Positions 11,568-25,894 of a DNA stretch of 26,186 bases are shown in pieces; the stretch's first letter is position 1, and each line of letters opens with the position of its first letter. The position numbers and the translations under genes are program-made. The notes under the pieces are model-generated. The model saw only the letters and a list, made by a program, of their open reading frames with translations. It made no database searches and had not been told where the DNA came from. This DNA comes from an uncultured Akkermansia sp. (GTDB taxonomy: Bacteria > Verrucomicrobiota > Verrucomicrobiia > Limisphaerales > UBA9464). The stretch is from assembly GCA_964509045.1 (NCBI GenBank), contig CAZDYB010000001.1, forward strand, positions 5,083 through 31,268. The letters are read 5' to 3'.

Positions 11568-11576
11568 GATCCAGGT

Positions 11577-12347: not shown

Positions 12348-12401
12348 ACCCACACCCTGCCCATCCCCATCCAATCCGCCAAGTCCCAGACGCCAGCCGG
12401 G

Positions 12402-12430
12402 TTGACCCCCCACCCGACCCACCATAGGGT
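12402..12430 (+). promoter_or_regulatory. Putative sigma70 promoter for ispB and downstream genes
   Basis: TTGACC (12402-12407), 17-bp spacer, TAGGGT (12425-12430, TAnnnT). It ends 9 nt before ATG 12440. Confidence 0.55.
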
Positions 12431-12439: not shown

Positions 12440-13486
12440 ATGGCGGTTCCCGCGCCCCAATTCCTTACCTCTGGCATCCTCACCGATCCCAATGGCCGCG
12501 TCCGCGCCGCCTGGGAAGAGGTGGTGTCGCCGGTCAAATCCTTCCTGGGCGACGTCTCAGTCCGCCTGGTGGACCAGGTGCGCGATTTCGAACCCGAAAT
12601 CGCCGAGTACGCCCGTTACGCCCTCGACAATCAGGGCAAACAACTCCGACCCGCACTCGTCGCCCTCGCCGGCGGTTCCTGCGGACGGTTGACCGATGAC
12701 CACGTCTCCCTCGCCGCCATCATCGAGATGATCCACCTGGCCACCCTCGTCCATGACGACATCATGGATGGCGCCTCCCTGCGCCGTGGTCGGTCCACCC
12801 TCGCCACCCGATGGGGCAATGACATCGCCGTCCTCGTCGGTGATTGCCTGTTCGCCCACGCCCTCAAACTGGCCGCCGGATTCGCCACCGTCGAGGTCTG
12901 CCGCGCCGTCGCCCTCTCCACCCACGTGGTCTGTGCCGGCGAAATCCTCCAGTCCCATCGCAGGCGCCGCTGGAACCTCGATCGCACCGACTACTTCAAG
13001 GTGCTCGAGATGAAGACCGCCGAACTCTTCGCCCTCGCCTGTGACCTCGGCGGACGCCTCTCCGGCGCCAACCCCGCCCAACAACAGGCCCTCCGTCGCT
13101 ACGGCATCCTCCTCGGGACCGCTTATCAGATCTACGACGACATCCTCGATCTTTACGGCGCCGAGGATGACGCCGGGAAATCCCTCGGCACCGATCTCGC
13201 CAAGGGAAAGGTCACCCTCCCCCTCCTCGTCTTCTTCGAACGGGCTTCGTCCGCCGATCAACAGCAGATGATCCAGTGGCTGGAAGCCTGGGACCCCTCC
13301 TGCTTCGTGGGCGTCCGCTCCCTCCTCGACCACGTCGATGCCCTCGGCGAATCCCGGCGCACCATCGATTCACTCCTGGTCGAAGCCCGCGAAACCCTCA
13401 CGATCCTGCCGGATACCCCCGAGACCCGGGCTCTGGATGCATTGCCCGGATTTCTCACGCAACAAACCGCGGCACTTGGTGTCTGA
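12440..13486 (+). CDS. ispB: Polyprenyl (octaprenyl/heptaprenyl-type) diphosphate synthase, 348 aa
   Basis: GKQLRP, first aspartate-rich motif LVHDDIMD followed by RRGR, KTA, second motif QIYDDILD, GKSLGTDL. Chain length cannot be determined by eye. Confidence 0.93.
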   Translation: MAVPAPQFLTSGILTDPNGRVRAAWEEVVSPVKSFLGDVSVRLVDQVRDFEPEIAEYARYALDNQGKQLRPALVALAGGSCGRLTDDHVSLAAIIEMIHLATLVHDDIMDGASLRRGRSTLATRWGNDIAVLVGDCLFAHALKLAAGFATVEVCRAVALSTHVVCAGEILQSHRRRRWNLDRTDYFKVLEMKTAELFALACDLGGRLSGANPAQQQALRRYGILLGTAYQIYDDILDLYGAEDDAGKSLGTDLAKGKVTLPLLVFFERASSADQQQMIQWLEAWDPSCFVGVRSLLDHVDALGESRRTIDSLLVEARETLTILPDTPETRALDALPGFLTQQTAALGV

Positions 13487-13492
13487 CCGCCC

Positions 13493-14158
13493 ATGACCGG
13501 AGTCGCACCGCTCATGGATATCCCCGCGAACATCCCTTCCCATGCCCCCGCTGCCCTGGCGGGGGTTCCTTCCCCAACCGTCGAGGATTCCGGGGACCGA
13601 CAACTGGTGAGGCGCGCCCAGTCCGGTGATCTCGACGCCTTCGACGACCTGATCGTCCGTTATCAGGAGCGGATCTACGCACTGGTCTACCACATGACCT
13701 CCAATCACGAGGACGCAACCGACCTCGCCCAGGAGGCGTTCCTCAAGGCCTGGAAAGCCCTCCGCAACTTCAAGGGCGACTCCAGCTTCTACACCTGGGT
13801 CTATCGCATCGCCGTCAATCACACCCTCAACCACCTCAAATCCCGACGGCAACGCACCCAGCATCTGTCCCTCAACGATCTCGATTTCAATGCCGAGAAT
13901 GACCCCGGCCTGGTCCAACTCATCTCGGACAAGACTCCCCGTCGCGATGTCAACCTGCGCGAACTCGGTCAGCATTTGAACGAGGCCATGATGCGCCTGT
14001 CGGAGGAACACAGAACGGTCGTGACGCTGCACGACATCCAGGGCATGCCCCACGACGAGATCGCCCAGATCCTCGAATGCAACCCCGGTACCGTCCGCTC
14101 CCGTCTGTTCTACGCACGCCAGCAGTTGCAGGCGTTGCTTTCGGACTATTTGCGTTGA
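13493..14158 (+). CDS. ECF (RpoE/sigma24-like) sigma factor, 221 aa
   Basis: AQSGDLDAFDDLIVRYQERIY, DATDLAQEAFLKAW, SSFYTWVYRIAVN; region 4 EIAQILECNPGTVRSRLFYARQQL. Alternative ATG at 13514. Confidence 0.95.
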   Translation: MTGVAPLMDIPANIPSHAPAALAGVPSPTVEDSGDRQLVRRAQSGDLDAFDDLIVRYQERIYALVYHMTSNHEDATDLAQEAFLKAWKALRNFKGDSSFYTWVYRIAVNHTLNHLKSRRQRTQHLSLNDLDFNAENDPGLVQLISDKTPRRDVNLRELGQHLNEAMMRLSEEHRTVVTLHDIQGMPHDEIAQILECNPGTVRSRLFYARQQLQALLSDYLR

Positions 14159-14161
14159 GCC

Positions 14162-14716
14162 ATGGAAAGCACCCCAGAAAGAAATCCGGAACAATCCCCG
14201 GCATCCATCCCGCCCCCCCCCGAAGCCCAACTTGAGGCCGTCGGCCGCCTCCTCGCCCTCAAACGCCACGAGACACCTCCCCCCGGCTTCTTCCGGGATT
14301 TCCAACGCCAGGTACGACGCCAGATCGAGGCCGAGACCGAGGCCCGCCGCTCCGCCTCCCCCTTCACCCGCTTCCTGGATTCCCTCCGTTCCCGACCGGC
14401 CTTCGCCGGCGCCAACGCCCTCATCGCCACCGGCCTCGCCGTCCTCGCCGTCACCGCCTTCGTACGCCGCCCAGATCCCCTCGCCCAAGGCAACCCGACT
14501 CCCAAACAGGCTCCAGTCGTCGCCGGTTTCGGTGGCACCGCACCCGGTTCCCTCTCCTCCGCCTCGGATCAACCCGTTTCCTTCCCCCAGACCTTCTTCC
14601 TGCCCGCCGGCGTGACCTATCGGATCGAAATCCACTCCGTGGATTCCAATGCCGTCCCCGAAGGAATCTTCACCCGGCCGACACCGGATTTCGAACACGT
14701 GCGCTGGCCACGCTGA
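14162..14716 (+). CDS. Putative single-TM anti-sigma factor, 184 aa
   Basis: 3 nt after the ECF gene; short helical N-domain RLLALKRHETPPPGFF; one TM (ALIATGLAVLAVTAFV); Pro-rich tail. Confidence 0.7.
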   Translation: MESTPERNPEQSPASIPPPPEAQLEAVGRLLALKRHETPPPGFFRDFQRQVRRQIEAETEARRSASPFTRFLDSLRSRPAFAGANALIATGLAVLAVTAFVRRPDPLAQGNPTPKQAPVVAGFGGTAPGSLSSASDQPVSFPQTFFLPAGVTYRIEIHSVDSNAVPEGIFTRPTPDFEHVRWPR

Positions 14717-14778
14717 ATCCCCCGTGACAGTCTCGCCGAACGGGTTGCACGGTCTCCACCGCAGCCCGTCCCCGGCTC

Positions 14779-16281
14779 ATGTTTTCCGCACGCGGCGTCA
14801 TCCTCGGTTCCCTCGGAGCCATCGGGCTCCTCATCGCCCTGATGGTCTGGAACCAGTCCAACCCCTCCCTCCCGGCCGGCACCCCAGCCTCCCACCCCCT
14901 CGTCGTCTTCTGCGCCGCCGGCATCCGCGCACCCGTCGAAGCCGTCGCCCGCGAATACGAACGCGAGTTCGGCACCTCCATCCAACTCCAGTTCGGCGGC
15001 TCAGGCACCCTCCTCAACAACCTCCGCGTCGCCCAACGCGGTGACCTCTTCATCGCCGCCGATTCCTCCTTCGTCTCCCTCGCCCGCTCCAACAACCTCA
15101 TCGACGAAGTCCTCCCGCTCGCCCGCATGACCGCCGTCATCGGCGTCCCCAAGGGCAATCCCCGGCAGGTCTCCGGGATCTCCAGCCTTCTCCAACCCGG
15201 TCTCCGGGTCGCCCTCCCCAATCCCGACGCCACCGCCTGCGGTTCCCTCACCCGCTCCGCCCTTTCCCAGGCCGGCACCTGGGACGCCCTTTCCACCCGC
15301 GCCCTCGTCTTCAAACCCACCGTCACCGACGTCGCCAATGACATCAAACTCGGCTCCGTCGACGCCGGCATCCTCTGGGATGCCACCGTGCGCCAATACC
15401 CGGGACTCGAAGCCGTCTCCGCCTCCGAACTCGCTCCCCATCCCTCCCACGTCTCGGTCTGCGTCCTCCGCTCCTGCGATCAACCCACCGCCGCCCTTCG
15501 CTTCGCCCGCTACCTCGCCGCCCGCGACCGCGGCCTGCCTCACTTCGCCACCGCCGGTTTCACCCCGGTCACCGGGGACGTCTGGCAACCCAACCCCTCC
15601 GTCCTCCTCTACAGCGGGACCGTCAACCGCGTCGCCATCGAGGAGTCCCTCCGCGAATTCGAACTCCGCGAGGGCGTCCGCGTCACCCGCGTCTACAACG
15701 GATGCGGCATCCTCACCGCCCAGATCCGCGCCGGCCAAAGGCCCGATGCCTACTTCGCCTGCGATGTCTCCTTCATGGAAACCGTCCAGTCCGGATTCCA
15801 ACCCGCCGTCGCCCTCGCCGAAACCGACCTCGTCCTCCTCGTCCAGAAAGGCAACCCCTCCAGGATCTCCAGCCTCGCCGATCTCGCCCGACCCGGCCTC
15901 AAGGTGGGCCTCTGTCACGAACAACAGAGCGCTCTCGGCGCCCTCACCGCCCGTCTCCTCCGCAATGTCGACCTCCACGACTCCGTCTCCCGCAACACCT
16001 CCGTCCAATCCCCCACCGGCGATCTCCTCGTCAACCAACTCCGCTCCGGTGCCCTCGACGTCGCCGTCGTCTATGCCGTCAATGCCTCCCAGGTCCTCGA
16101 TCATCTCGACGTCATCTCCGTCTCCGGCCCCGGTACCGTCGCCGTCCAACCCTATGCCGTCGGCCTCGGATCCGATCACGCCCAACTGATGTCGCGTCTC
16201 TACGAGAAACTCCGCGCCCAGGCGTCCCGCGACCGCTTCCTCCAGGCCGGTTTCCGATGGAAGGTTCCCGATGCCCGGTGA
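14779..16281 (+). CDS. modA: Molybdate/tungstate ABC substrate-binding protein with two tandem ModA domains, 500 aa
   Basis: N-terminal TM anchor. Repeat 1: CAAG..GGSG..DLFIAAD..PKGNP..DAGILW. Repeat 2: SGTV..NGCG..DAYFACD..QKGNP..DVAVVY. Followed by modB and modC. Confidence 0.9.
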   Translation: MFSARGVILGSLGAIGLLIALMVWNQSNPSLPAGTPASHPLVVFCAAGIRAPVEAVAREYEREFGTSIQLQFGGSGTLLNNLRVAQRGDLFIAADSSFVSLARSNNLIDEVLPLARMTAVIGVPKGNPRQVSGISSLLQPGLRVALPNPDATACGSLTRSALSQAGTWDALSTRALVFKPTVTDVANDIKLGSVDAGILWDATVRQYPGLEAVSASELAPHPSHVSVCVLRSCDQPTAALRFARYLAARDRGLPHFATAGFTPVTGDVWQPNPSVLLYSGTVNRVAIEESLREFELREGVRVTRVYNGCGILTAQIRAGQRPDAYFACDVSFMETVQSGFQPAVALAETDLVLLVQKGNPSRISSLADLARPGLKVGLCHEQQSALGALTARLLRNVDLHDSVSRNTSVQSPTGDLLVNQLRSGALDVAVVYAVNASQVLDHLDVISVSGPGTVAVQPYAVGLGSDHAQLMSRLYEKLRAQASRDRFLQAGFRWKVPDAR

Positions 16282-17128
16282 TCCGTCCCCGTCCACTTCC
16301 CGGCCCCCTGCCCAACCCCCGCTTCCCCGGGCCGGTTCCGATCGCGTCTTCTACGCGTGCCTCGGGATCCTCGCCGGAACCTACGTCCTGCTCCTCGTCG
16401 CCACCGTCGCCGCCGACCTCTTCTACACCACCCCAGGCCACCTCTGGCGCGCCCTCAAGAGCCCCGAGATCCAATACGCCATCCGCCTGAGCCTCCTGAG
16501 CTGTACCCTCACCACCCTCCTCTCCCTGTGGGTCGCTGTCCCCGTCGGTTATCTCCTCGCCCGCTTCAGATTCCCAGGCCGCGCCCTCCTCGATGCCATC
16601 CTCGACATCCCCATCGTCCTCCCTCCACTCGTCATCGGACTCAGCCTCCTCATCCTGTTCCAGGCCCCACCACTCCGCGCCCTCGAACGGATCTTCCCCG
16701 TCACCTACGCCATTCCGTCCATCATCCTCGCCCAGTTCATGGTCGCCTGCGCCTTCGCCGTCCGAACCATGCGCGCCACCTTCGAGCAACTCAGTCCCCG
16801 ACACGAACAGGTCGCCCTCACCCTCGGCTGCAACCGTTCCCAGGCCTTCTGGCGCGTCGTCCTCCCCTCCGCACGACGCGGGATCCTCACCGCCGCCACC
16901 CTCGCCTGGGCCCGCGCCCTCGGTGAATTCGGCCCCATCCTCATCTTCTCCGGCGCCACCCGCATGAAGACCGAGGTCCTCCCCACCACCGTCTTCCTCG
17001 AACTCTCCATCGGCAACATCGAGGCCGCCGTCGCCGTCTCCCTCCTCATGATCGTCGCCGCCGTCGCCGTCCTCGTCCTCATCCGAACCCTCGGCCTCCC
17101 ACACACCCACTCCCACGCCCCACGCTGA
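16271..17128 (+). CDS. modB: Molybdate ABC permease, 285 aa
   Basis: DIPIVLPPLVIGLSLL, EAA-like QVALTLGCNRSQAFWRVVLP, LAWARALGEFG; overlaps the modA stop. Confidence 0.93.
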   Translation: MPGDPSPSTSRPPAQPPLPRAGSDRVFYACLGILAGTYVLLLVATVAADLFYTTPGHLWRALKSPEIQYAIRLSLLSCTLTTLLSLWVAVPVGYLLARFRFPGRALLDAILDIPIVLPPLVIGLSLLILFQAPPLRALERIFPVTYAIPSIILAQFMVACAFAVRTMRATFEQLSPRHEQVALTLGCNRSQAFWRVVLPSARRGILTAATLAWARALGEFGPILIFSGATRMKTEVLPTTVFLELSIGNIEAAVAVSLLMIVAAVAVLVLIRTLGLPHTHSHAPR

Positions 17129-17129
17129 C

Positions 17130-17780
17130 ATGATCGCCCTCGACCAGGTCACCGTTCACGCCGGCACCTTCTCCCTCGCCAACGTCTCCTTCGAAGTCCC
17201 CTCCGGCAGCCACACCGCCCTCATGGGCCGCACCGGCTCCGGCAAGACCACCCTCCTCGAAGCCATCTGCGGCCTCCGTCCCGTCTCCGCCGGTCGCATC
17301 ATCGTCGATGACTCCGATGTCACCCGCGCCGCCCCAGGCCAACGCGGCCTCGGTTTCGTCCCCCAGGACGGCGCCCTCTTCGAACACCTCACCGTCCGCC
17401 AACACCTGTCCTTCGCCCTCGAACTCCGACGTTGGCCCATCGACCGCATCCAACAGCGCGTCGCCGAACTCAGCCTCTGGCTCCAACTCGATCCCATCCT
17501 CGACCGCCGTCCCCACGGCCTCAGCGGCGGCGAATCCCAACGCGTCGCCCTCGGTCGCGCCCTCTCCTTCCAACCCTCCGTCCTCTGCCTCGACGAACCC
17601 TTGTCCGCTCTCGACGACGAAACCCGGTCCGATGTCTGCCAGGTCCTCGCCGATATCCGCGCCCGTACCGGCATCACCCTCCTGCACATCACCCACAACC
17701 GGTCCGAGGCCGAACGTCTCGCCGACCGCCTCCTGATCCTCACCGATGGCCACATCGAATCCCGTCCCATCCGTGCCTGA
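17130..17780 (+). CDS. modC: Molybdate ABC ATP-binding protein, short and without a TOBE domain, 216 aa
   Basis: GRTGSGKTT, FVPQDGALFEHL, LSGGESQRVALGRAL, LDEP, HITH. Confidence 0.9.
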   Translation: MIALDQVTVHAGTFSLANVSFEVPSGSHTALMGRTGSGKTTLLEAICGLRPVSAGRIIVDDSDVTRAAPGQRGLGFVPQDGALFEHLTVRQHLSFALELRRWPIDRIQQRVAELSLWLQLDPILDRRPHGLSGGESQRVALGRALSFQPSVLCLDEPLSALDDETRSDVCQVLADIRARTGITLLHITHNRSEAERLADRLLILTDGHIESRPIRA

Positions 17781-18531
17781 ATCCGACCTGCCCGAACTCT
17801 CGCCCGAGGAGGTCGCCACCTACGAATGGCAGTCCGATGTCTCCGGCTTCAGCGAATCCGCACAACGCCGCCTGAAGGGCGCTTCCGTCCTCGTCTCCCG
17901 CGTCGGTGGCCTCGGGGGGATGGTCGCCTTCGAACTCGCCGCCGCCGGTGTCGGCCGCCTCATCCTCGCCCATGGCGGCCTGCTCCGGCCCTCCGACCTC
18001 AATCGCCAACTCCTGATGACCCATGATCACATCGGGAAACCCCGCATCGACAGCGCCGTCGCCCGCCTCAAGGCCCTCAACCCACGCCTCGACATCATCG
18101 CCGAACCCCACAACATCCAACCCGACAACGCCGCCCGCCTCGTCGCCCAGGCCGATGTCGTCGTCGATTGCGCCCCGCTCTTCTCCGAACGGTATCTCCT
18201 CAATCACCACGCCATGGCCCTCCGCAAACCCATGGTCGAGGCCGCCGTCCATGACTTCGATCTCCACCTGACTTCCTTCATCCCCGGTCGTTCCGGCTGT
18301 CTCCGCTGTCTCTACCCCCAACCCAGCACCACCTGGACCCGTCGCTTCCCCGTCCTCGGCGCCGTTCCCGGTGTCGCCGGCTCCCTCGCCGCCCTCGAAA
18401 CCATCAAACTCATCACCGGGATCACTCCCACCCTCGAATCCCGCCTCCTGACCTGGGATCTGCGTTCCTATCGTGTGAAAATGCTGCGACTCCACCGGAT
18501 TGTGGATTGTCCGGACTGCGGCGCCTTGTAG
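17746..18531 (+). CDS. hesA: HesA-type ThiF/MoeB family protein with degenerate nucleotide-binding motifs, up to 261 aa
   Basis: VGGLGG, SDLNRQ, VVDCA, CLRC and CPDC zinc pairs. LILAHGG..RQLLMTHDHIGKPR and KPMVEAA resemble the HesA subgroup. Alternative GTG start at 17773. Confidence 0.82.
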   Translation: MATSNPVPSVPESDLPELSPEEVATYEWQSDVSGFSESAQRRLKGASVLVSRVGGLGGMVAFELAAAGVGRLILAHGGLLRPSDLNRQLLMTHDHIGKPRIDSAVARLKALNPRLDIIAEPHNIQPDNAARLVAQADVVVDCAPLFSERYLLNHHAMALRKPMVEAAVHDFDLHLTSFIPGRSGCLRCLYPQPSTTWTRRFPVLGAVPGVAGSLAALETIKLITGITPTLESRLLTWDLRSYRVKMLRLHRIVDCPDCGAL

Positions 18532-18545
18532 TCTCCCAGGTCGAA

Positions 18546-19733
18546 ATGTCGGGGCGCCTCTTCATCCTCCTGCTGGGACTCATCCTCGCGATCAGTCCGC
18601 ATTCCTTCGCCGTTGCCTGCCGTTATTCGGTGCGCGACACCGGCTTCATCGACCTCGGCACCTCCGCCTACCGACTCGAACTGGTCGCTGATCCCGCCTT
18701 CCCCAACGCCCTCCGCCAGACCTTCCAGCAAGCCGCCGCCGCACTGCTCCTCGATTCCAACATCTCCTTCGATCCCAATGGCCCCACCCCAGCTCCCGGC
18801 ATGGGCCCCGGCCTGCGCCTCGTCGATTCCGACCGGCGCTCCCTCAACATCGCCCAACTCGATCCCTCCGCCCCAGCCGACGCCCTTCGCCTCCTCGAAT
18901 CCGTCGCCTCCTCCCCTGCCCGCGACCGACTCTTCCGCGAAACCCTTCGCGCCTACGCCGTTGTCCTGTTGATCGAAGGGTCCGATTCCACCGCGAACCA
19001 AGACGCACGCGACGCCGCCCAGGCCGCCATCGAGGCCATCACCCGACTCCTGCCCACCATGGCCAAGCCCATGGATGTCCCACCCGTCCTCCTCAGCCTT
19101 TCGACCGCTGAACAGGCCGCCGAATCCGTCCTGCTCTGGGGTCTCGGCTTCGACCCCGCCCCCACCGATTCACCCCGCATGGCCCTGGTCTTCGGTCGCG
19201 GTCGTCGTCTCGGTTCCACTCTCGAAGGCCCGCTCATCACCCAGACCGCCCTCCGCGAACGCCTCGTCCTCATCGGCCAGGATTGCGAATGCGAACTCGA
19301 CCGCGCCTGGCTCAGCGGCCCCCTCCTCCCCGGCCGATGGGATCGAACCCTCCAGCAAACCGCCGCACGCACCCTCGGTTTCGACCCCGAAAACCCCGTC
19401 GTCCGCGCCGAAGTCAGCCGGATCATCGAACGGGGTCCCCAGGCCAACCAACGCAAACGCACCCCCGCCACCTCCCAGGCACTCGGCTATTCCGAGGAAT
19501 CCATCGAGGAACCCCTCGTCGACTCCTCCGATTCCACCCCTCCAACCGATCCCACCGACACTTCCGAGGTCGTCACAACTCCTGGCCCGCCGGCTTCCAT
19601 CGGAGTTCTCCCGGCTGGATCCGCTGCGGCGGAATCCTCTGGCGCCCGACGCGCCTGGATCGCCCTCGCCGGTGCCATCACCGCCGCCCTCGCCGCCGGC
19701 ACCTGGCTCTTCTTCCGGTCTTCCTCCCGATGA
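18546..19733 (+). CDS. Secreted, C-terminally membrane-anchored hypothetical protein, 395 aa
   Basis: ATG 18546; signal peptide MSGRLFILLLGLILAISPHSFAVA, then CRYSVRDTGF; DCEC motif; acidic Pro/Thr linker; TM AWIALAGAITAALAAGTWLFF. Confidence 0.82.
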   Translation: MSGRLFILLLGLILAISPHSFAVACRYSVRDTGFIDLGTSAYRLELVADPAFPNALRQTFQQAAAALLLDSNISFDPNGPTPAPGMGPGLRLVDSDRRSLNIAQLDPSAPADALRLLESVASSPARDRLFRETLRAYAVVLLIEGSDSTANQDARDAAQAAIEAITRLLPTMAKPMDVPPVLLSLSTAEQAAESVLLWGLGFDPAPTDSPRMALVFGRGRRLGSTLEGPLITQTALRERLVLIGQDCECELDRAWLSGPLLPGRWDRTLQQTAARTLGFDPENPVVRAEVSRIIERGPQANQRKRTPATSQALGYSEESIEEPLVDSSDSTPPTDPTDTSEVVTTPGPPASIGVLPAGSAAAESSGARRAWIALAGAITAALAAGTWLFFRSSSR

Positions 19734-20884
19734 TCTCCCCGGTCTCCCTCATCCTCCGCGAACTCCGGCATCACCGGTTCAATGCCGGGCTCGCCCTGTT
19801 CGCCCTGACCGCCGCAGTCGCCCTGCTCGTCGTCGTCCGTCTGCTCACCACCGCCGCCGAACGCGAGACCCGGCGCGTGGTCCGCGATCTCGGATTCAAT
19901 CTCCGCATCATTCCGCGCGACACCGATCCCGAGCAGTTCTTCCTCACGGGTTACTCCTCCGGAACCCTGCCAGCCGACTCCGTCCAACGCCTCGCCGCCG
20001 GTGCCGGTACTTTCCTGAGCTTCAATCACCTCACGCCTTCCCTCGAACGCCGCATCCAACTCGAAGGCCGTGAAGCCCTCCTCACCGGACTCGGTCGCGC
20101 CGTCGTCGGCCCCGGCGAAGGCAAACAGCCCATGGGCTTCAACATCCCCGATGGCAAGGCCTACGTCGGTCATGTGCTCGCCCAACGTCTCCAGGCCAAA
20201 CCCGGCCTCGCCCTGAATGTCCAGGGACGCGCCCTCGCCGTGGAACGGGTCCTGGTCGAGGCCGGCACCGATGACGACATCCGACTCTTCACTTCCCTCG
20301 GCGATGCCCAGGCCATCCTCGGGCTTCCCGACCGCATCAGTGAGATCAAGGCCATCGATTGCCTCTGCCTCACCGCCGATCAGGATCCGCTCACCCAACT
20401 GCGGCAGGCACTCGAAAAGCTCCTGCCCGAAGCCCGCGTCCTCCAGATGCGCACCATGGCCGATGCCCGCGCCCGGCAACGTCAGGCCGCCGAACGCGTC
20501 GCCGCCTTCGCCGTTCCCCTCACCCTGCTCGTCGCCGCCGCCTGGACCTGCACCCTCGCCATCCTCAACGTCCGGCATCGCCGACAGGAACTCGGCCTCT
20601 GGCGCGCCCTCGGCATCAGCTCCTCCCGCATCGCCTTCCTTTTCCTCGGCAAAGCCATCCTCCTCGGCCTCGTCGCCGCCCTCCTCGGTTACCTCGCCGG
20701 CACCGGCATCGCCCTCAGCTTCGGTCCACGCCTGTTCCCCGTCACCGCCGCCGGCATCCGACCCGAACATCTCCTCCTGCCCTGGGCCCTCCTCCTCGCC
20801 CCCGGCTTCGCCGCCCTCGCCTCGTTCCTTCCGGCCATGATCGCCGTCACCCAGGACCCCGCCGAAACCCTCCGCGCAGATTGA
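19730..20884 (+). CDS. FtsX/MacB-type (type VII) ABC permease, 384 aa
   Basis: ATGA overlap; N-terminal TM, large periplasmic domain, then RHRRQELGLWRALG and three C-terminal TMs ending QDPAETLRAD. Confidence 0.9.
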   Translation: MISPVSLILRELRHHRFNAGLALFALTAAVALLVVVRLLTTAAERETRRVVRDLGFNLRIIPRDTDPEQFFLTGYSSGTLPADSVQRLAAGAGTFLSFNHLTPSLERRIQLEGREALLTGLGRAVVGPGEGKQPMGFNIPDGKAYVGHVLAQRLQAKPGLALNVQGRALAVERVLVEAGTDDDIRLFTSLGDAQAILGLPDRISEIKAIDCLCLTADQDPLTQLRQALEKLLPEARVLQMRTMADARARQRQAAERVAAFAVPLTLLVAAAWTCTLAILNVRHRRQELGLWRALGISSSRIAFLFLGKAILLGLVAALLGYLAGTGIALSFGPRLFPVTAAGIRPEHLLLPWALLLAPGFAALASFLPAMIAVTQDPAETLRAD

Positions 20885-21576
20885 CCGTGATCTCCTGCTC
20901 CCATCTCACCCGCCAGTTCGCCACCCGACCCGGCATGGTCGCAGGTCTCATCGATGTCTCCCTCGACATCGACCGCGGCGAATTCGTCGTCGTCCAGGGC
21001 CCCAGTGGCTGCGGCAAATCCACCCTGCTCCTCTCCCTCGCCGGCATGCTCCGACCCGATTCCGGCACCATCACCGTCGATGGAATCAATCCCTACTCCC
21101 TGTCCACCGCCGACCGTTCCCGGTTCCGCGCCCGCTCCATCGGGTTCGTCTTCCAACTCTTCCACCTCATCCCCTACCTCGACGTCCGCCACAACATCCT
21201 CGCCGGTCTTCCCACCACGTCCCCAGAGGCTGTCGCCCGCGTCGAAGACTGGATCCGGGATCTCGGCCTGACCGATCGTCAGGACGCCTTCCCCACCACC
21301 CTCAGCGCCGGCGAACGCCAGCGCGTCGCCCTCGCCCGCGCCCTCGCCAAACAACCCCCGATCATCCTCGCCGACGAACCCACCGGCAGCCTCGATCCCG
21401 CCAACAGCGCCATTGTCTTCAACCAACTCAACGCCTTCCGCCACGCCGGCGGCACCGTCGTCGTGGTCACCCACGGGCACGAAGCCCATCCCTTCGCCAC
21501 CCGCATCCTCCGACTCGAGGCCGGCCGCATCGTCTCCTCCCTTTCCTCCACCCCGAAACCCCTGATCGCCTCGTGA
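20881..21576 (+). CDS. LolD/MacB-like ABC ATP-binding protein, about 231 aa
   Basis: TTG 20881 (or GTG 20887); GPSGCGKST, IGFVFQLFHLIP, LSAGERQRV, ILADEPTGSLD, VVTH. Confidence 0.93.
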   Translation: MTVISCSHLTRQFATRPGMVAGLIDVSLDIDRGEFVVVQGPSGCGKSTLLLSLAGMLRPDSGTITVDGINPYSLSTADRSRFRARSIGFVFQLFHLIPYLDVRHNILAGLPTTSPEAVARVEDWIRDLGLTDRQDAFPTTLSAGERQRVALARALAKQPPIILADEPTGSLDPANSAIVFNQLNAFRHAGGTVVVVTHGHEAHPFATRILRLEAGRIVSSLSSTPKPLIAS

Positions 21577-22997
21577 AACCGTTCCACCCCCTCCTCTTCC
21601 TCCTCGGCTCGCTCGCCTGCGTCCAGGCATCCGATTGGCCCACTTATCGCGGCGATTATTCCCGCAGCGGTGTCTCGCCCGATCCCCTTCCGCCCCGCCT
21701 CACCGAGGCCTGGTCCTGGCAATCCATCCATCCACCCCAACCCGCCTGGCAGGGCGAAGCCAAGTGGGACGGCTGGAACAAGGTCTTCAACATGAAGCCG
21801 CGCCAGACCTTCGACCGCGCCTTCCATGTCGCCGTCGCCGGCGGCAGGGTGTTCTTCGGTTCTTCCTCCGATGACCAGGTCCGCTGTCTCGACGCCCGCT
21901 CCGGCAAGCTGCTCTGGACCTTCCACACCGAGGGCCCCGTCCGTCTCGCCCCCACCGTCCAGGACGGTCGCGCCTTCTTCGGTTCCGATGACGGCTGCAT
22001 CTATTCCGTGGACGCGGATTCAGGCAAGCTCGCCTGGAAGGTCCGCGCCACCCCAAAGGATCGCCGCATCCCCGGCAATGGCCGCATGATCTCCGCCTGG
22101 CCCGTCCGCACCTCCATCGTCGTCCAGGACAACACCCTCTACACCACCGCCGGCATGTTCCCCGTGGAAGGCGTCCACCTCGTCGCCCTCGATGCCAGCA
22201 ATGGCTCCGAGAAATGGCGCCAGATCCAGAACGATCTCCCCGCCCAGGGCTATCTCCTCGCCTCCCGTTCCCGCCTCTATATCCCCGCCGGTCGCGACAA
22301 CCCCGCCGTGTGCGACATCGGGTCCGGCAAACGCATCCGCGTCGTCGAGGGCGCCGGTGGCACCTACGCCCTCCTCACCGATGACATGCTCGTCTTCGGC
22401 CCCGGCAAGACCGGTCAACTCGGGGCCGTCGAGGAAGGACGCTCCGACCAGCTCGCCAGCTTCCAGGGCAACCACATGATCGTCACCCCGGAACGGTCCT
22501 TCCTCCATTCCGACACCGAACTCACCGCCCTCGACCGCGCCCGTTACCTCGCCCTCGCCCGCGAACGCAAACAGCTCGGGACCGAACAGGCCGCCCTCAA
22601 CAAGAAACTCAAGGCCCTCGGCAACAAGGCCGGCACGGAATCCGAACGCGACTCCCTCAAGACCCAACTCGCCGACCTCGGCAAACGCATCGACGCCGCC
22701 ACCCAGGGCATGGACCAATGCCAGCTCTGGCGCTCCCCTTCCTCCTGGCAACATTGTCTCGTCCTCGCCGGCACCACCCTCGTCGCCGGTGGCACCGACG
22801 AAGTCGCCGCCCTCAATGCCACCGATGGCTCCCTCGCCTGGCGGCATCCCGTCCGCGGTCGCGCCTATGGCATCGCCGCATCCGACGGCGCCCTCTTCAT
22901 CAGCACCGACCAGGGAACCATCCATTGCCTCCGCACCGGCACCACCCAGGCCTCCCTCTCAACCCCCACCACCGCTTCCACGGAGATCTCCCGATGA
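21573..22997 (+). CDS. Secreted PQQ-like/BamB-like beta-propeller protein, 474 aa
   Basis: GTG start overlapping the previous stop; signal peptide; DWPTYRGD; repeated LDAxSGKxxW blades (LDARSGKLLW, VDADSGKLAW, LDASNGSEKW, LNATDGSLAW). Confidence 0.88.
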   Translation: MKPFHPLLFLLGSLACVQASDWPTYRGDYSRSGVSPDPLPPRLTEAWSWQSIHPPQPAWQGEAKWDGWNKVFNMKPRQTFDRAFHVAVAGGRVFFGSSSDDQVRCLDARSGKLLWTFHTEGPVRLAPTVQDGRAFFGSDDGCIYSVDADSGKLAWKVRATPKDRRIPGNGRMISAWPVRTSIVVQDNTLYTTAGMFPVEGVHLVALDASNGSEKWRQIQNDLPAQGYLLASRSRLYIPAGRDNPAVCDIGSGKRIRVVEGAGGTYALLTDDMLVFGPGKTGQLGAVEEGRSDQLASFQGNHMIVTPERSFLHSDTELTALDRARYLALARERKQLGTEQAALNKKLKALGNKAGTESERDSLKTQLADLGKRIDAATQGMDQCQLWRSPSSWQHCLVLAGTTLVAGGTDEVAALNATDGSLAWRHPVRGRAYGIAASDGALFISTDQGTIHCLRTGTTQASLSTPTTASTEISR

Positions 22998-25894
22998 ACC
23001 TCCTCCCCTCCCCTTCGTCCTTCGCGCCTCTCACACTCGCCCTCGGCCTCACCCTGTCCCTTCAGGCCCAGGAAACCGGTCTGATCGGTCACTGGGAGTT
23101 CGCACCGGAACGGACCCAGAACTCCGGCATGCGCGCCGTCTCCGGCCCCGGTGTCTCCTTCTTCTCCACCCCCAGCGTCCTCCGCGATCCGCCCCCAGCC
23201 CGCATCGAACTCCCCGGCCGCGACGAACGCATCGTCATCTCCTCCACCCTCGACAAATCCCAGCAACCCACCCGCGAAATGACCGCGGAAGCCTGGGTGC
23301 GCGTCGACCGCACCTCGAAATGGGGCGGCATCATCGGCGCCCTCCAGGACAACGGGGATTTCGAACGCGGATGGCTCCTCGGCTTCGTCGACAACCACTT
23401 CTCCCTCGCCATCGCCTCCGAAGGCGCCAAACGCCTCACCTATCTCGCCGCCACTCCCACCTTCGAAACCAATCGCTGGTATCACGTCGCCGGCACCTAT
23501 GACGGCGCCGAGATGCGCATCTTCGTCAATGGCACCCTCGCCGCCTCCAGTCGCGATCAGTCCGGCCCCATCCTCTACCCGCCCTCCGCTCCGTTCGTCA
23601 TCGGCGCCTATCAGGATGATGACGAACATTACCGTCTCACCGGAGCCATCCACGAAGTCCGCCTGCTCCGCCGCGCCCTCGCCCCCGCCGAACTCCTCGC
23701 CCGGTACCAGGCCCGCAAGGACCTCTTCCCCGAACCCACTCCCGCACCCCGTTTCTTCAAGCCCGAATACGGTCCCTTCGTCGATTGGCAGGATCGCCAT
23801 TCAGCCGTCGTCACCTGGGAATCCGCCGTCCCCCAACCCACCGCCCTCGACCTCGAACGTCCCGGCATCGGCACCCAACGCCTCGGCGATGGCCAATCCC
23901 GGACCTCCCACTCCATCACCCTCACCGAACTCGAACCCGACCTCGAATACCATTACCGCCTCGTCGCACCCTCCGAGGGCCCGCGCCAGGTCGTCTCCCG
24001 ACGCTATCAGTTCGACACCTCCTTCTACTACCGGCCCGCTCCCAGCCCCGCTCCCAGCCCCGCCGCTCCCGCCGGTCCCGCCGCACGCGCCCGCCAAATC
24101 CTCGACGCCGCCGGTGTCTCCAAGGGCTACGCAGTCCTGCTCGGTTCCCCCTCCGCCGCCCTCGCCATCGAACTCGTCCGGCACAGCGAGTTCGACCTCA
24201 TCCTCGTCGAACCCGATGCCTCCCGCATTCCCGCCCTCCGACGCGATCTCGATGCCGCCGGTGTACAGGGCATCCGCGCCGCCGTTCATCACGCCACCAC
24301 TTCCGAACTCCCCTATGGCGATCTCTTCGCCAACCTGGTCCTGGTCGAGAATGGACGTCCGCCGTTCATCAGCGCCACCGAGGCGCATCGCCTCATCCGT
24401 CCTTCCGGCGGGGTTTTCCTCGTCGATTCCGCCCAACCCGCCGACTCCGCCGCCTGGTCGCGGTGGCTCGCAGATTCCCCCCTCGCCAGCCTGACCATCG
24501 GCAAACCCGGCGCCGCACAACTCGCCTTCCATCGCCCTCGTCTCGCCGGTTCCGGCGATTGGTCCCATCAATATGGTGGCGCCGACAACTCCGCCTGCAG
24601 CCAGGACGAACTCGTCAAAGGCGATCTCGACGTCGCCTGGTGGGGTGATCCCGGCCCGCGCCCCATGCCCGATCGCGGCAACCGCAATCCCGCCCCTCTC
24701 AGCGTCAATGGCCGCCTCTTCGTCCAGGGCGACCGCGTCCTGTTCGGTCTCGATTCCTACAACGGCGCCATCCTCTGGAACTTCTCCGCCCCAGAGATCC
24801 GTCGCGCCAATGTCACCCGTGACTGCTCCAACATGTCCGCCGCCGGCGACCTCCTCTTCATCGTCCATGGCCGCTTCTGCCTCGGCATCGATGGCCAGAC
24901 CGGCAACCGCCGCATCCGACTCGCCGTTCCCACCTCGGACAATCAGGAAGAACGCGACTGGGGCTACATCGCCGCCGGATCCGATTTCATCGTCGGCAGC
25001 CGCGTGAAACGCGAATCCGCCTATCTCGGCGATGACGGCGAATGGTACGAGGAATTCGCCTCCGACCAGGTCAGCCGGGTCACCAGCGACCTGCTCTTTG
25101 CCCAGGATCCCGCCAACGGGAAGGTCCTCTGGGAATACCGCGGCGGTGCCATCCTCAACTCCACCATCACCCAGGGCGATGACATGGTGTTCTTCCTCGA
25201 AAGCCGGAATCCCGCCGCCATCAACGCCCCCAACGCCCGACTCGATCCCGCCGTCCTGACCGAACAGTTCCTGGTCGCCCTCGACCGCAAGACCGGCCGC
25301 AAGCTCTGGGAAAAGGATCACGACTTCAGTTCGCTCGAATTCATGAGCTACCTCGTCTACGGCAACAATTCCGTCGTCGTCACCGGCACCGACCGCCGCA
25401 AACACTTCCACACCTTCGCCTTCAATGCCCCGTCCTCCAAGGCCCCGAAATCCGGTGGCGATGACATCGCCAACGCCATCGGCGGTCGCCTCCTCTGGTC
25501 CGAATCCCACAAGGAAGACAAGGGACATCACAGCGGTCACCTCCAGCATCCCGTCGTCATCGGCGACACCTTCTATTCCGACCAACGCTCCTTCAACATG
25601 GTCACCGGCGAACTCCTCAGTAAGGATCTCCCCGAACGTCGCGGATGCGGCGTCATGTCCGCCGCCAAGGGTGCCATCTTCTTCCGCCATTACTTCCACG
25701 GCATGTGGGATCTCGAATCCGACAAACGTCAGCAGTTCCTCGGCATCCGTTCCGGTTGCTGGCTCAGCCTGATCCCTGCCGGCGGATTCCTCCTCGCCCC
25801 CGAAACCAGCGCCGGTTGCTCCTGCACCCACGCCATCCAGACCTCCGTCGGTTACATCCCCCGCAGCCTCACCGCCCGAGGTCAGGGCAAGTAG
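22994..25894 (+). CDS. Secreted multidomain protein: LamG/ConA, FN3-like, methyltransferase-like fold, PQQ-like beta-propeller; 966 aa
   Basis: ATGA overlap; signal peptide ending SLQA. LamG: TAEAWV..WYHVAGTYDG..FVNG. FN3-like: SAVVTW..LTELEPDLEYHYRL. MTase-like: LVEPD..LPY..FANLVL..IRPSGG. Propeller blades LDSYNGAILW, QDPANGKVLW, LDRKTGRKLW. Confidence 0.88.
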   Translation: MNLLPSPSSFAPLTLALGLTLSLQAQETGLIGHWEFAPERTQNSGMRAVSGPGVSFFSTPSVLRDPPPARIELPGRDERIVISSTLDKSQQPTREMTAEAWVRVDRTSKWGGIIGALQDNGDFERGWLLGFVDNHFSLAIASEGAKRLTYLAATPTFETNRWYHVAGTYDGAEMRIFVNGTLAASSRDQSGPILYPPSAPFVIGAYQDDDEHYRLTGAIHEVRLLRRALAPAELLARYQARKDLFPEPTPAPRFFKPEYGPFVDWQDRHSAVVTWESAVPQPTALDLERPGIGTQRLGDGQSRTSHSITLTELEPDLEYHYRLVAPSEGPRQVVSRRYQFDTSFYYRPAPSPAPSPAAPAGPAARARQILDAAGVSKGYAVLLGSPSAALAIELVRHSEFDLILVEPDASRIPALRRDLDAAGVQGIRAAVHHATTSELPYGDLFANLVLVENGRPPFISATEAHRLIRPSGGVFLVDSAQPADSAAWSRWLADSPLASLTIGKPGAAQLAFHRPRLAGSGDWSHQYGGADNSACSQDELVKGDLDVAWWGDPGPRPMPDRGNRNPAPLSVNGRLFVQGDRVLFGLDSYNGAILWNFSAPEIRRANVTRDCSNMSAAGDLLFIVHGRFCLGIDGQTGNRRIRLAVPTSDNQEERDWGYIAAGSDFIVGSRVKRESAYLGDDGEWYEEFASDQVSRVTSDLLFAQDPANGKVLWEYRGGAILNSTITQGDDMVFFLESRNPAAINAPNARLDPAVLTEQFLVALDRKTGRKLWEKDHDFSSLEFMSYLVYGNNSVVVTGTDRRKHFHTFAFNAPSSKAPKSGGDDIANAIGGRLLWSESHKEDKGHHSGHLQHPVVIGDTFYSDQRSFNMVTGELLSKDLPERRGCGVMSAAKGAIFFRHYFHGMWDLESDKRQQFLGIRSGCWLSLIPAGGFLLAPETSAGCSCTHAIQTSVGYIPRSLTARGQGK

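What the first reader, a model, noticed from the sequence alone, without database searches (positions are those of the whole stretch)
14779..25894. Candidate undescribed oxyanion (Mo/W)-linked envelope system: modA2BC, hesA-like, anchor protein, type VII ABC and two propellers
Seen: nine tightly coupled genes join an oxyanion importer, a degenerate E1-like protein, a membrane-anchored secreted protein, an FtsX/LolD-type ABC and two large secreted propeller proteins. The window has no nif, moa/moe/mog, ModE, MoaD/ThiS or molybdoenzyme gene. Established: modABC normally accompanies Moco or nitrogenase genes; hesA is a nif-cluster gene in heterocystous cyanobacteria and Paenibacillus; type VII ABCs act on periplasmic substrates. 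Inference: a module that imports an oxyanion or thio-oxyanion and uses the type VII ABC to load or mature a Cys-coordinated cofactor on periplasmic propeller proteins. I know no characterised pathway with this combination.
Basis: partly seen in the sequence, partly recalled or inferred. Interest (0 to 1): 0.72.

Follow-up and report, generated by a model that had tools for sequence, protein, structure and literature searches.

The report
Oxyanion importer joined to cysteine-relay envelope machine
Nine tightly packed genes of a freshwater Verrucomicrobium join a molybdate-type importer and an unusual ThiF-like protein to an undescribed ATP-driven periplasmic machine studded with invariant cysteines, and this pairing recurs in several gene orders across two phyla, so it is probably one system, but what it handles is still unknown.

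Summary
Nine + strand genes (14779-25894) overlap or nearly abut: tandem ModA-like binding protein, ModB, ModC, ThiF-like protein, signal-plus-anchor protein, FtsX permease, ABC ATPase and two PQQ-like propellers. The block is collinear in 29 of 47 species-level loci with enough flank.

The two halves are separable. Some genomes have modA2BC-thiF alone, and some have the anchor/FtsX/propeller module alone. Even so, they rejoin in at least four arrangements, in Verrucomicrobiota and Planctomycetota, and thiF is the bridging gene. This supports functional coupling.

The anchor is a double thioredoxin fold with an invariant Cys triad. The FtsX outer domain (His + CxC), prop2 (CxC, two Cys, several His) and both ModA pockets also carry invariant Cys. 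The ThiF-like protein is a conserved non-canonical subfamily, not a decayed gene.

Mo/W as cargo is plausible but unproven, and cofactor loading onto the propellers is untested.

This scan had already noted the ABC/anchor core on other DNA. The link to the importer and ThiF is the new part. I found no paper describing it.

The parts
13493..14158 (+). ECF sigma factor (context; possible regulator)
   Evidence: Pfam Sigma70_r2, r4_2 and Sigma70_ECF. It lies in the same metatranscriptome contig as the nine genes. It is adjacent only in the closest relative L035, and lies downstream of the cluster in L101/L103.
14162..14716 (+). Single-pass membrane protein, anti-sigma-like (context)
   Evidence: No Pfam hit. 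One hydrophobic segment at residues 79-102. Its start is 4 nt after the sigma gene's stop.
14779..16281 (+). ModA2: membrane-anchored tandem ModA-like oxyanion-binding protein
   Evidence: Two SBP_bac_11 stretches. TIGR01256 scores 80 bits for the whole protein but 54 and 30.6 for the single repeats, against a cut-off of 62.5. Repeat 1's best PDB matches are almost all ModA. N-terminal hydrophobic segment at 1-26. C309 and C328 are kept in every copy examined; C45 is invariant in the 42 anchor-linked copies and kept in 9 of the 10 other copies checked, including stand-alone ones.
16271..17128 (+). ModB-like permease (NifC-like clade)
   Evidence: BPD_transp_1. TIGR01581 scores 206 bits against a cut-off of 210.3, ahead of the sulfate and molybdate permease models.
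17130..17780 (+). ModC-like ATPase, short form without a TOBE domain
   Evidence: ABC_tran. The best NCBIfam hits are WtpC, sulfate and ModC ATPases, all below their cut-offs; the protein is 216 aa.
17746..18531 (+). ThiF*: non-canonical ThiF/MoeB-like protein
   Evidence: Pfam ThiF, 162 bits. Aligned to E. coli ThiF and MoeB structures. It carries SRVGGLG, LAHGG and DCAPLF in place of the Gly loop, the ribose Asp and the Mg Asp, and these substitutions are conserved in 64 orthologues and in all contexts. Both CxxC pairs are kept.
18546..19733 (+). Anchor: exported double-thioredoxin-fold protein with a C-terminal membrane helix
   Evidence: No Pfam or NCBIfam hit. AxA|C signal-peptidase site; invariant C25, C247 and C249. 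AF2 pLDDT 83. Foldseek matches PDI b-b' type tandem Trx folds at E 5e-5 but with low TM. The family has 1085 representatives of 50%-identity clusters.
19730..20884 (+). FtsX/MacB-type permease (type VII ABC)
   Evidence: FtsX Pfam domain at the C-terminus. Four hydrophobic segments with a ~210-residue loop between TM1 and TM2. H100, C211 and C213 in that loop are invariant in 71 sequences, and are kept at 29-31% identity and in Planctomycetota.
20881..21576 (+). FtsE/LolD/MacB-type ABC ATPase
   Evidence: ABC_tran. The best NCBIfam hits are FtsE, DarD and LolD, all below their equivalog cut-offs.
21573..22997 (+). prop1: Sec-exported PQQ_2/BamB-like beta-propeller with a coiled-coil insert
   Evidence: PQQ_2, 93.7 bits. 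The PQQ-dehydrogenase model TIGR03075 scores far below its cut-off. A signal-peptide-like N-terminus is visible in the translation. It is present next to the anchor in most loci.
22994..25894 (+). prop2: exported LamG + FN3-like + methyltransferase-like + PQQ_2 propeller protein
   Evidence: Laminin_G_3 and PQQ_2. The AF2 domain layout has pLDDT 77.6. The best PDB fold match is tetrathionate hydrolase 7cqy, E 5e-14, TM by target 0.54-0.57. C885, C922, C942, C944, H525, H806, H846 and H852 are invariant.

Best explanation
This is a composite operon built from three separable modules that work together. Module 1 is a binding-protein-dependent ABC importer for a tetrahedral oxyanion, most likely molybdate or tungstate. 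Its binding protein is a membrane-anchored tandem ModA with cysteines in both pockets. Module 2 is ThiF*, a cytoplasmic ThiF/MoeB-like protein of a conserved non-canonical subfamily. It keeps the Zn site but has replaced the residues that hold ATP-ribose and Mg. In other lineages it sits beside a MoaD/SAMP-like Gly-Gly protein or a canonical MoeZ-type E1-rhodanese, so it probably acts in sulfur-carrier chemistry as a partner or scaffold rather than as a stand-alone adenylating enzyme. Module 3 is the PVC 'Cys-x-Cys' envelope machine. It comprises a MacB/FtsX-type ABC pair, which like other type VII ABCs would use cytoplasmic ATP to move its periplasmic domain rather than carry solute across the membrane. 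It also has a membrane-tethered double-thioredoxin-fold partner, and it has Sec-exported PQQ-like propellers as clients or co-workers. Proposed mechanism (inferred, not shown): the FtsX outer domain (His100, Cys211, Cys213), the anchor (N-terminal Cys25, Cys247, Cys249) and the His/Cys-rich C-terminus of prop2 pass a thiophilic cargo from one to the next. The cargo could be a metal, sulfane sulfur or a thio-metallate. ModA2BC and ThiF* connect that periplasmic pool with cytoplasmic Mo/S metabolism. Shown: gene content, conservation, recurrent linkage, folds, topology and invariant residues. Inferred: the direction of flow, the cargo and the relay itself.
For: The nine genes are translationally coupled. 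The block keeps sharp boundaries while the flanks change in relatives. Among loci with enough flank, 29 of 47 hold the full set and 40 of 47 have thiF next to the anchor. The linkage is re-created in different orders: Isosphaeraceae L110 (TauE-anchor-ftsX-abc-modA2BC-MoaD-like-thiF, with overlapping stops and starts); G145, two copies (MoeZ-like, distant anchor homologue with N-terminal Cys and CSC, ftsX, abc, modA2BC, thiF); and Phycisphaerales L114, with modB/C nearby. thiF goes with modA2BC where the anchor is elsewhere or absent. It goes with the anchor where modA2BC is elsewhere in the genome. This is the pattern expected of a bridging component. Invariant Cys/His residues lie in the extracytoplasmic parts of FtsX, the anchor, prop2 and ModA2. 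The anchor is a tandem Trx fold. FtsX has the 4-TM MacB-like topology. The ThiF* substitutions are conserved, not random. modA2BC is the only ModA-like system found in this assembly, and MoaE is present here and in all five relatives' genomes checked. One 12-13.6 kb contig of a ~92% identical relative spans sigma to prop2 in four lake metatranscriptome runs and ends about 150 nt after prop2 in three of them. In Paenibacillus, the ThiF-family protein HesA is tied to Mo and S supply but not to Moco (PMC6361004).
Against: The modules are separable. modA2BC-thiF stands alone in G038, G048 and G060, where no anchor was found. It lies on other contigs than the anchor in G037 and G039. The anchor module occurs without thiF or mod (L079, L102, L107, L086, L089), and the anchor occurs alone in several Planctomycetota. 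In three loci the core sits beside aminoethylphosphonate catabolism genes instead (PhnW), so it may be a general envelope device that is merely co-regulated with different pathways. Most full-set loci belong to one order, so they are not independent. Type VII ABCs are not known to export solutes, and an importer does not obviously feed a periplasmic assembly line. Conserved Cys in exported proteins may simply be structural disulfides. The His/Cys loops of prop2 are the low-confidence parts of the model. Cargo identity is untested: no ModA, ModB or ModC equivalog cut-off is passed by a single domain. The RNA-library contigs do not prove a single transcript.
Confidence: 0.5

Rival explanations
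1. Juxtaposed but functionally independent units. modA2BC plus ThiF* would be the cell's ordinary molybdate uptake and Moco-related sulfur-transfer set. The anchor/FtsX/ABC/propeller genes would be an unrelated envelope module, for example for protein handling, envelope remodelling or nutrient capture. Both would share an operon only for co-regulation or by descent.
For: Each half exists without the other. modA2BC is the only ModA-like transporter found in a genome that makes Moco, so it has an obvious housekeeping job. The core also neighbours phosphonate catabolism genes in L086, L089 and L098. Most full clusters come from one order.
Against: Linkage is re-created in at least four gene orders and in two phyla. 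thiF switches sides between the two modules. Overlapping stop/start codons cross the supposed boundary in the window and in L110. The ModA2 pockets carry invariant Cys like the envelope proteins.
Confidence: 0.25
2. A sulfur-compound system rather than a Mo/W system. The propellers would act on a periplasmic sulfur species such as a polythionate, thiosulfate or polysulfide. The CxC motifs would carry persulfide. ModA2BC would import a sulfur oxyanion. ThiF* with MoaD-like carriers would feed it into thiocarboxylate-based sulfur assimilation, as in the CysO/MoeZ route of mycobacteria (comparison from my own knowledge).
For: The best solved-structure match of the prop2 propeller is tetrathionate hydrolase. 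SBP_bac_11 and the permease family also include sulfate/thiosulfate systems, and weak sulfate-model hits are seen. A MoaD/SAMP-like Gly-Gly protein, a MoeZ-type E1-rhodanese and a TauE/SafE anion exporter are neighbours in other lineages. The Cys-rich extracytoplasmic parts fit persulfide chemistry.
Against: The binding protein and permease score clearly closer to molybdate/NifC-like models than to sulfate models, and the PDB hits of repeat 1 are almost all ModA (13 of 14). The genome has a separate CysT/CysW-like pair. The tetrathionate hydrolase match may only reflect the shared PQQ_2 fold (BamB scores similarly). The catalytic residue was not checked.
Confidence: 0.15
3. A periplasmic soft-metal (Cu, Zn or similar) delivery or detoxification machine. 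The Cys triads and the His/Cys site would bind the metal itself, and the oxyanion importer and ThiF* would be only co-regulated.
For: Cys3 and His-Cys2 sets and a His-rich loop (H839-H852) are typical metal sites. The loops are poorly modelled without a ligand.
Against: There is no known metal-chaperone, P-type ATPase or RND partner in the conserved block. This reading does not explain the recurrent link to modA2BC and thiF.
Confidence: 0.1

Closest known systems
Type VII ABC systems with a dedicated periplasmic partner (FtsEX-EnvC, LolCDE-LolA, MacAB-TolC, HrtBA)
   Same: A 4-TM FtsX-fold permease with a large loop between TM1 and TM2, a separate FtsE/LolD-like ATPase and a co-encoded extracytoplasmic partner. 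The likely logic is ATP-driven work outside the membrane.
   Different: The partner is an undescribed double-thioredoxin-fold protein with its own membrane helix. An invariant His + CxC sits in the permease loop and a Cys triad in the partner. No equivalog cut-off is met. The system is linked to an importer and an E1-like protein.
ModABC molybdate importer (and the NifC-like clade TIGR01581)
   Same: The three-gene order of SBP, permease and ATPase. The nearest profiles and solved structures are ModA/ModB/ModC or WtpC.
   Different: The SBP is a fused tandem with an N-terminal membrane segment and invariant Cys in both pockets. Repeat 2 is barely ModA-like (E 4e-4). The ATPase lacks the TOBE domain. 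Single domains fall below all curated cut-offs.
MoeB/ThiF/HesA E1-like adenylyltransferases
   Same: The ThiF fold and both Zn-binding CxxC pairs. MoaD-like Gly-Gly neighbours occur in two lineages. Like HesA, it is genetically associated with Mo supply (PMC6361004).
   Different: The first Gly of the loop is Arg, the ribose Asp is His and the Mg Asp is Pro, conserved across the subfamily. It has no rhodanese domain. It is not in a nif context, and no nitrogenase was found in the genome.
NosDFY-NosL maturation of the CuZ site of the NosZ propeller (analogy only, from my own knowledge)
   Same: An ABC system plus a membrane-tethered periplasmic helper encoded with a Sec-type exported beta-propeller that needs a sulfur-containing metal site assembled outside the cytoplasm.
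   Different: There is no sequence or fold relationship. NosFY is not an FtsX-type transporter. No metal site has been shown here.
Tetrathionate hydrolase and BamB-type 'empty' PQQ_2 propellers
   Same: Eight-bladed PQQ_2-family propellers without the PQQ-enzyme signature. 7cqy is the best fold match.
   Different: prop2 carries extra LamG, FN3-like and methyltransferase-like domains and a His/Cys-rich C-terminus. Catalytic equivalence was not tested.

Membership tests
ModABC molybdate transporter | The binding protein passes the ModA equivalog model (TIGR01256, cut-off 62.5 bits) | tested here: inconclusive
   The whole tandem protein scores 80 bits, the sum of two repeats. The repeats alone score 54 and 30.6 bits.
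ModABC molybdate transporter | The permease passes ModB (TIGR02141) or the NifC-like model (TIGR01581) | tested here: not met
   154.8 bits against 182.6, and 206 bits against 210.3; the second is marginal.
ModABC molybdate transporter | Anion-ligand positions of E. coli ModA (Ser12, Ser39, Ala125, Val152, Tyr170; from my own knowledge) | tested here: inconclusive
   Aligned to 3r26, repeat 1 has Gly for Ser12, keeps GGSG at the Ser39 position, keeps Val, and has Trp for Tyr. Repeat 2 has GCG. Binding was not measured.
ModABC molybdate transporter | ModC with a C-terminal TOBE/Mop regulatory domain | tested here: not met
   The protein is 216 aa and matches only profile positions 6-212 of 353.
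MoeB/ThiF adenylyltransferase | ThiF-family fold | tested here: met
   PF00899, 162.5 bits; PDB ThiF E 2e-34.
MoeB/ThiF adenylyltransferase | ATP/Mg-binding residues (Gly loop, ribose Asp, Mg Asp of the TDN motif) | tested here: not met
   SRVGGLG, LAHGG and DCAPLF, aligned against ThiF's GLGGLG, LADDD and DCTDN. Conserved in 64 orthologues.
MoeB/ThiF adenylyltransferase | Zn-binding CxxC pairs | tested here: met
   C185, C188, C255 and C258 are invariant in the main set. They are lost in the G145/G100 lineage.
MoeB/ThiF adenylyltransferase | Co-encoded ubiquitin-fold Gly-Gly substrate (MoaD/ThiS) | tested here: not met
   There is none in the window or in the other loci of this type. One is present next to thiF* only in L110 and G154. 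Three ThiS-family genes lie elsewhere in the genome.
HesA (nif-associated ThiF-like protein) | Location in a nif cluster or a nitrogenase-bearing genome | tested here: not met
   No Oxidored_nitro match in the 82%-complete genome, and no nif gene in the window.
HesA (nif-associated ThiF-like protein) | Orthology to characterised HesA | not tested
   No HesA sequence was available to compare. Database names are the generic 'HesA/MoeB/ThiF family'.
Type VII (MacB/FtsX-fold) ABC system | 4-TM permease with a large extracytoplasmic domain between TM1 and TM2, and a C-terminal FtsX domain | tested here: met
   Hydrophobic segments at 16-44, 253-282, 298-332 and 348-374. PF02687, 45.5 bits.
Type VII (MacB/FtsX-fold) ABC system | Separate ATPase of the FtsE/LolD/MacB type | tested here: met
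   The best NCBIfam hits are FtsE (163 bits), DarD and LolD. All are below their equivalog cut-offs, so it belongs to none of those named systems.
PQQ-dependent dehydrogenase | Passes the PQQ enzyme model (TIGR03075, cut-off 480) | tested here: not met
   39.4 bits for prop1 and 14.5 bits for prop2. Only the generic PQQ_2/BamB repeats are present.
Thioredoxin/PDI-type oxidoreductase (anchor) | CxxC active site on a Trx fold | tested here: not met
   Tandem Trx-like folds resembling the non-catalytic PDI b-b' domains. The invariant Cys are an N-terminal Cys and a CxC after the second domain, not a CxxC.

The most novel reading that the evidence does not exclude
The cluster would be an extracytoplasmic cofactor-assembly line of a kind not yet described. 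A type VII ABC motor would drive a Cys-x-Cys relay (FtsX loop to double-Trx anchor to propeller). The relay would build or insert a sulfur-containing Mo/W (or other thiophilic metal) centre into Sec-exported beta-propellers. It would be supplied through a Cys-lined tandem ModA importer and a cytoplasmic sulfur-carrier branch. In that branch ThiF* would be the inactive half of a prokaryotic heterodimeric E1, paired with a canonical MoeZ.
Probability: 0.12. Interest if true: 0.9.

Novelty: new variant of a known kind. Interest (0 to 1): 0.62.

Why it matters
The anchor family alone has over a thousand representatives of 50%-identity clusters, with no Pfam model and no name. Its ABC partner belongs to the mechanotransducing type VII class, for which only a handful of jobs are known. 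A relative's version of the whole cluster is assembled at high depth from lake metatranscriptomes, so it is probably in active use in common freshwater Verrucomicrobiota.

If the link to the ModA-like importer and ThiF* is functional, three things follow. It would give a first handle on what this widespread Cys-x-Cys machine handles. It would define a conserved non-adenylating branch of the E1-like family. It could reveal a route by which PVC bacteria process Mo/W or sulfur outside the cytoplasm.

If the link is only co-regulation, the finding still marks the boundaries of two reusable modules.

Tried and rejected
1. Cysteine desulfurase replacing thiF. The class-V aminotransferase next to the anchor in L086, L089 and L098 looked like a sulfur-mobilising substitute. 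NCBIfam shows it is PhnW (478-503 bits, cut-off 296), with PhnA-like and aldehyde dehydrogenase genes downstream in L098.

2. A MoaD/ThiS gene hidden in the window or in relatives' clusters. tblastn with the L110 MoaD-like protein found none, except in G154.

3. A nif context. No nitrogenase family match in the genome.

4. The promoter/terminator scan gave nothing above shuffled expectation.

5. Literature searches for this gene combination, or for a tandem ModA, found nothing relevant.

6. The Foldseek matches of prop2 to toxin receptor-binding domains and PAPP-A only reflect the generic LamG/jelly-roll domain.

7. The L097 'permuted' order may be two tandem clusters cut by the locus edge, so I did not count it as an independent arrangement.

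8. At phylum-wide sampling ThiF* is rare (3 of 200 genomes outside the order), so a broad phylogenetic profile had little power and I did not pursue it.

Full report
**What is in the window**

The window is high-GC (63-68%), with a strongly C-rich + strand. Names attached to homologues place it in Verrucomicrobiota of the Limisphaerales/Pedosphaera type.

- a 500-aa protein with two SBP_bac_11 (ModA-like) repeats behind an N-terminal hydrophobic segment
- a ModB-like permease nearest the NifC-like clade (TIGR01581, 206 bits against a cut-off of 210.3)
- a short ModC-like ATPase without a TOBE domain
- a 261-aa ThiF-family protein
- a 395-408-aa protein with no family hit
- an FtsX-domain permease
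- an FtsE/LolD-like ATPase
- a PQQ_2 propeller (prop1)
- a 966-aa protein with LamG, an FN3-like domain, a methyltransferase-like Rossmann domain and a PQQ_2 propeller (prop2)

The mechanical ORF list over-extends three of the genes. Orthologue alignments and the 4-nt ATGA/GTGA overlaps fix the real starts. Gene junctions are -11, +1, -35, +14, -4, -4, -4 and -4 nt.

Upstream lie an ECF sigma factor and a single-pass anti-sigma-like protein.

**Is the block real and conserved?**

A search of 61 related genomes with the unknown 'anchor' protein found it in 25. In 13 of the 17 loci I cut out, all nine genes are present in the same order, at 45-85% protein identity, while the sigma, anti-sigma and polyprenyl synthase genes of the window's flank are absent. 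So the unit has sharp boundaries.

A pattern scan of one genome per species returned 80 further loci. Of the 47 with enough flank:
- 29 have mod + thiF + ftsX/abc + prop1
- 9 have thiF + ftsX/abc + prop1 without mod
- 40 in all have thiF beside the anchor

**Are the two halves linked elsewhere?**

They are separable:
- In five other families of the order, the ThiF orthologue (55-60% identity) sits in a stand-alone modA2-modB-modC-thiF unit, once as thiF-modA2BC.
- In G037 and G039 that unit is on different contigs from the anchor genes. In G038, G048 and G060 no anchor was found.
- In G037 and G039 the anchor instead travels with FtsX/ABC or with propellers.
- The anchor module also occurs with neither thiF nor mod (L079, L102, L107), and alone in several Planctomycetota.

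They are also re-joined repeatedly in different ways:
- An Isosphaeraceae MAG (Planctomycetota) has TauE/SafE-anchor-ftsX-abc-modA2-modB-modC-MoaD-like-thiF, with overlapping stops and starts.
- A distant verrucomicrobial family has, twice in one genome, a canonical MoeZ-type E1-rhodanese, a remote anchor homologue (HMM E 3e-6, same N-terminal Cys, CSC motif and C-terminal helix), ftsX, abc, modA2BC and thiF.
- A Phycisphaerales MAG has modB/C beside the anchor-ftsX-abc-propeller genes.
- Fourteen loci have thiF-anchor-ftsX-abc(-prop1), while modA2BC stands alone elsewhere in the same genome, as checked in three of those genomes, two of them complete.

So thiF goes with mod in some genomes, with the anchor module in others, and with both in most. 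This is the classical signature of a component shared by two cooperating modules. I take it as good, though not conclusive, evidence of functional coupling. Most full clusters come from one order and are not independent.

**The unknown proteins**

*Anchor*
- It has an AxA|C signal-peptidase site, so the mature protein would start with an invariant Cys in the motif CRYSVRDTGF.
- It also has an invariant DCEC and a C-terminal membrane helix.
- AlphaFold2 (pLDDT 83) gives two thioredoxin-like domains. Foldseek's best solved matches are the non-catalytic b-b' domains of protein disulfide isomerases (E 5e-5, low TM), and the AFDB matches are unnamed PVC proteins.
- A profile search finds 1085 representatives of 50%-identity clusters, all without Pfam families.

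*FtsX*
- It has the MacB-like 4-TM topology with a ~210-residue outer loop.
- His100, Cys211 and Cys213 in that loop are invariant in 71 sequences. They are retained at 29-31% identity and in both planctomycete lineages.

*prop2*
- It has invariant C885, C922, C942 and C944 (a CSC-T-H motif), plus H525, H806, H846 and H852 and a near-invariant His-rich loop.
- These loops are the low-confidence parts of an otherwise fair model (pLDDT 77.6).
- Its propeller is closest to tetrathionate hydrolase (7cqy, E 5e-14, TM by target 0.54-0.57). BamB scores similarly, so this may be no more than the shared PQQ_2 fold.
- Neither propeller approaches the PQQ-enzyme model.

*Export route*
- Both propellers have Sec-type signal peptides without twin arginines (sequence). 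Any cofactor would therefore have to be added outside the cytoplasm.

**ThiF***

Aligned to E. coli ThiF and MoeB structures, the protein has three substitutions:
- Arg for the first loop Gly (SRVGGLG)
- His for the ribose-binding Asp (LAHGG)
- Pro-Leu for the Asp-Asn of the Mg site (DCAPLF)

It keeps the NRQ arginine and both CxxC pairs.

These substitutions are the same in 64 orthologues and in every genomic context, including the stand-alone mod-thiF units. It is therefore a conserved subfamily under selection, not a decaying gene.

It probably cannot adenylate in the MoeB manner (inference from the known role of that Asp, from my own knowledge). Its neighbours in other lineages are a MoaD/SAMP-like protein ending in Gly-Gly (twice) and a canonical MoeZ-type enzyme. 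These suggest it still works in ubiquitin-fold sulfur-carrier chemistry, perhaps as the inactive partner of an active E1.

The genome has its own canonical MoeB-type gene, MoaD+MoaE and three molybdopterin oxidoreductases, and no detectable nitrogenase.

The only experimental anchor is HesA of Paenibacillus. That ThiF-family protein's loss is suppressed by high molybdate or cystine and does not affect nitrate reductase (PMC6361004). Orthology to it was not tested.

**The importer**
- Repeat 1 of ModA2 matches solved ModA proteins (E 5e-13), and repeat 2 barely does (E 4e-4).
- Each repeat alone is below the ModA cut-off.
- The sulfate models score much lower than the molybdate/NifC-like models.
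- No other ModA-like gene was found in this assembly. The other SBP_bac_11 genes in complete relatives have open frames of about 320-365 aa, against the roughly 250 aa of a typical ModA (my knowledge).
- MoaE is present in this genome and in all five relatives' genomes checked.

So molybdate or tungstate is the most likely substrate, at perhaps 60%, but this is an inference.

The family-wide Cys at 'FCAAG', 'GCG' (the Ser39-equivalent of repeat 2) and 'ACD' are unusual for ModA. They are present whether or not the gene is linked to the anchor module.

**Expression**

Four lake metatranscriptome runs of one study each contain a single 12-13.6 kb contig, about 92% identical to the window. It covers 13403-25878, from the sigma gene to the end of prop2, at assembler depth 75-293. 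In three of the four runs it stops about 150 nt beyond prop2. This fits a long, well-expressed transcript. DNA carry-over and joined transcripts cannot be excluded.

**A caution on the sulfur theme**

A class-V aminotransferase beside the anchor in three loci looked like a cysteine desulfurase. It is PhnW, with further aminoethylphosphonate catabolism genes downstream in one locus. The core module therefore also neighbours an unrelated pathway. This keeps alive the rival that it is a general envelope device co-regulated with various uptake or catabolic genes.

**Earlier notes of this scan**

Three earlier follow-ups on other genomes had described the ABC/anchor core as an undescribed 'Cys-x-Cys' module of PVC bacteria. 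One placed it in a nine-gene operon and mentioned catabolic neighbours. My own tests agree on the double thioredoxin fold, the invariant CxC motifs and the distribution.

What this window adds:
- the recurrent link to modA2BC and ThiF*
- the conserved non-canonical ThiF* motifs
- the MoaD-like and MoeZ-like neighbours
- the Cys in the ModA pockets

**Verdict**

All parts but the anchor belong to known families. The assembly is a new variant of type VII ABC systems with a dedicated periplasmic partner, and I found no description of it in the literature I could search.

Noticed in passing
window 1-26186: GC skew is strongly negative throughout (down to -0.37), although most genes are on the + strand. 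The coding strand is unusually C-rich, and long spurious ORFs fill the other frames.
   Followed up: no
window 12440-14716; L035; L101 7798-9426; L103 16031-17660: A polyprenyl synthase + ECF sigma pair lies just upstream of the cluster in the window and its closest relative. Homologous copies (48% and 62-64% identity) lie about 1.7 kb downstream of the reduced cluster in two marine relatives. This may hint at a regulatory link.
   Followed up: partly
window 13403-25878 (lake metatranscriptome runs X14-X17): One 12-13.6 kb contig of a ~92% identical relative covers the sigma gene through prop2 at high assembler depth in four RNA libraries. It ends about 150 nt after prop2 in three of them.
   Followed up: partly
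window 24070-24500 (prop2 residues ~360-500): An exported protein carries a class-I methyltransferase-like Rossmann domain. Relatives keep an LGAxDGxLA glycine loop, and the G039 homologue hits Methyltransf_25. The window's copy has LGSPSAALA instead. A SAM-type domain outside the cytoplasm is odd.
   Followed up: partly
L086 8656-9927; L089 8691-9908; L098 11325-17947: PhnW sits directly beside the anchor module in three loci. In L098 it is followed by class-III aminotransferases, a PhnA-like phosphodiesterase-family gene and an aldehyde dehydrogenase, which together look like aminoethylphosphonate catabolism.
   Followed up: partly
L124 and L125 (genome G145): Two paralogous copies of a MoeZ-like / remote-anchor / ftsX / abc / modA2BC / thiF* cluster occur in one genome. 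Their ThiF* has lost the Zn-binding Cys pairs and the C-terminus.
   Followed up: partly
L110 9194-9937 and 16998-19331: In the Isosphaeraceae version, a TauE/SafE-family anion exporter gene overlaps the start of the operon. A 777-aa protein with a weak squalene-hopene-cyclase-like repeat follows thiF*.
   Followed up: no
window 8439-12425, - strand: A 1042-aa Ser/Thr kinase with WD40 propellers sits next to a divergent sigma-70-region-2 protein, transcribed away from the cluster.
   Followed up: no
window 22530-22730 (prop1 residues ~320-385): A predicted coiled-coil stretch is inserted between blades of the prop1 propeller.
   Followed up: no
L097: After prop2 the contig continues with modA2BC-thiF. 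This is either a rotated gene order or two tandem copies of the whole cluster. The locus edge prevents a decision.
   Followed up: no
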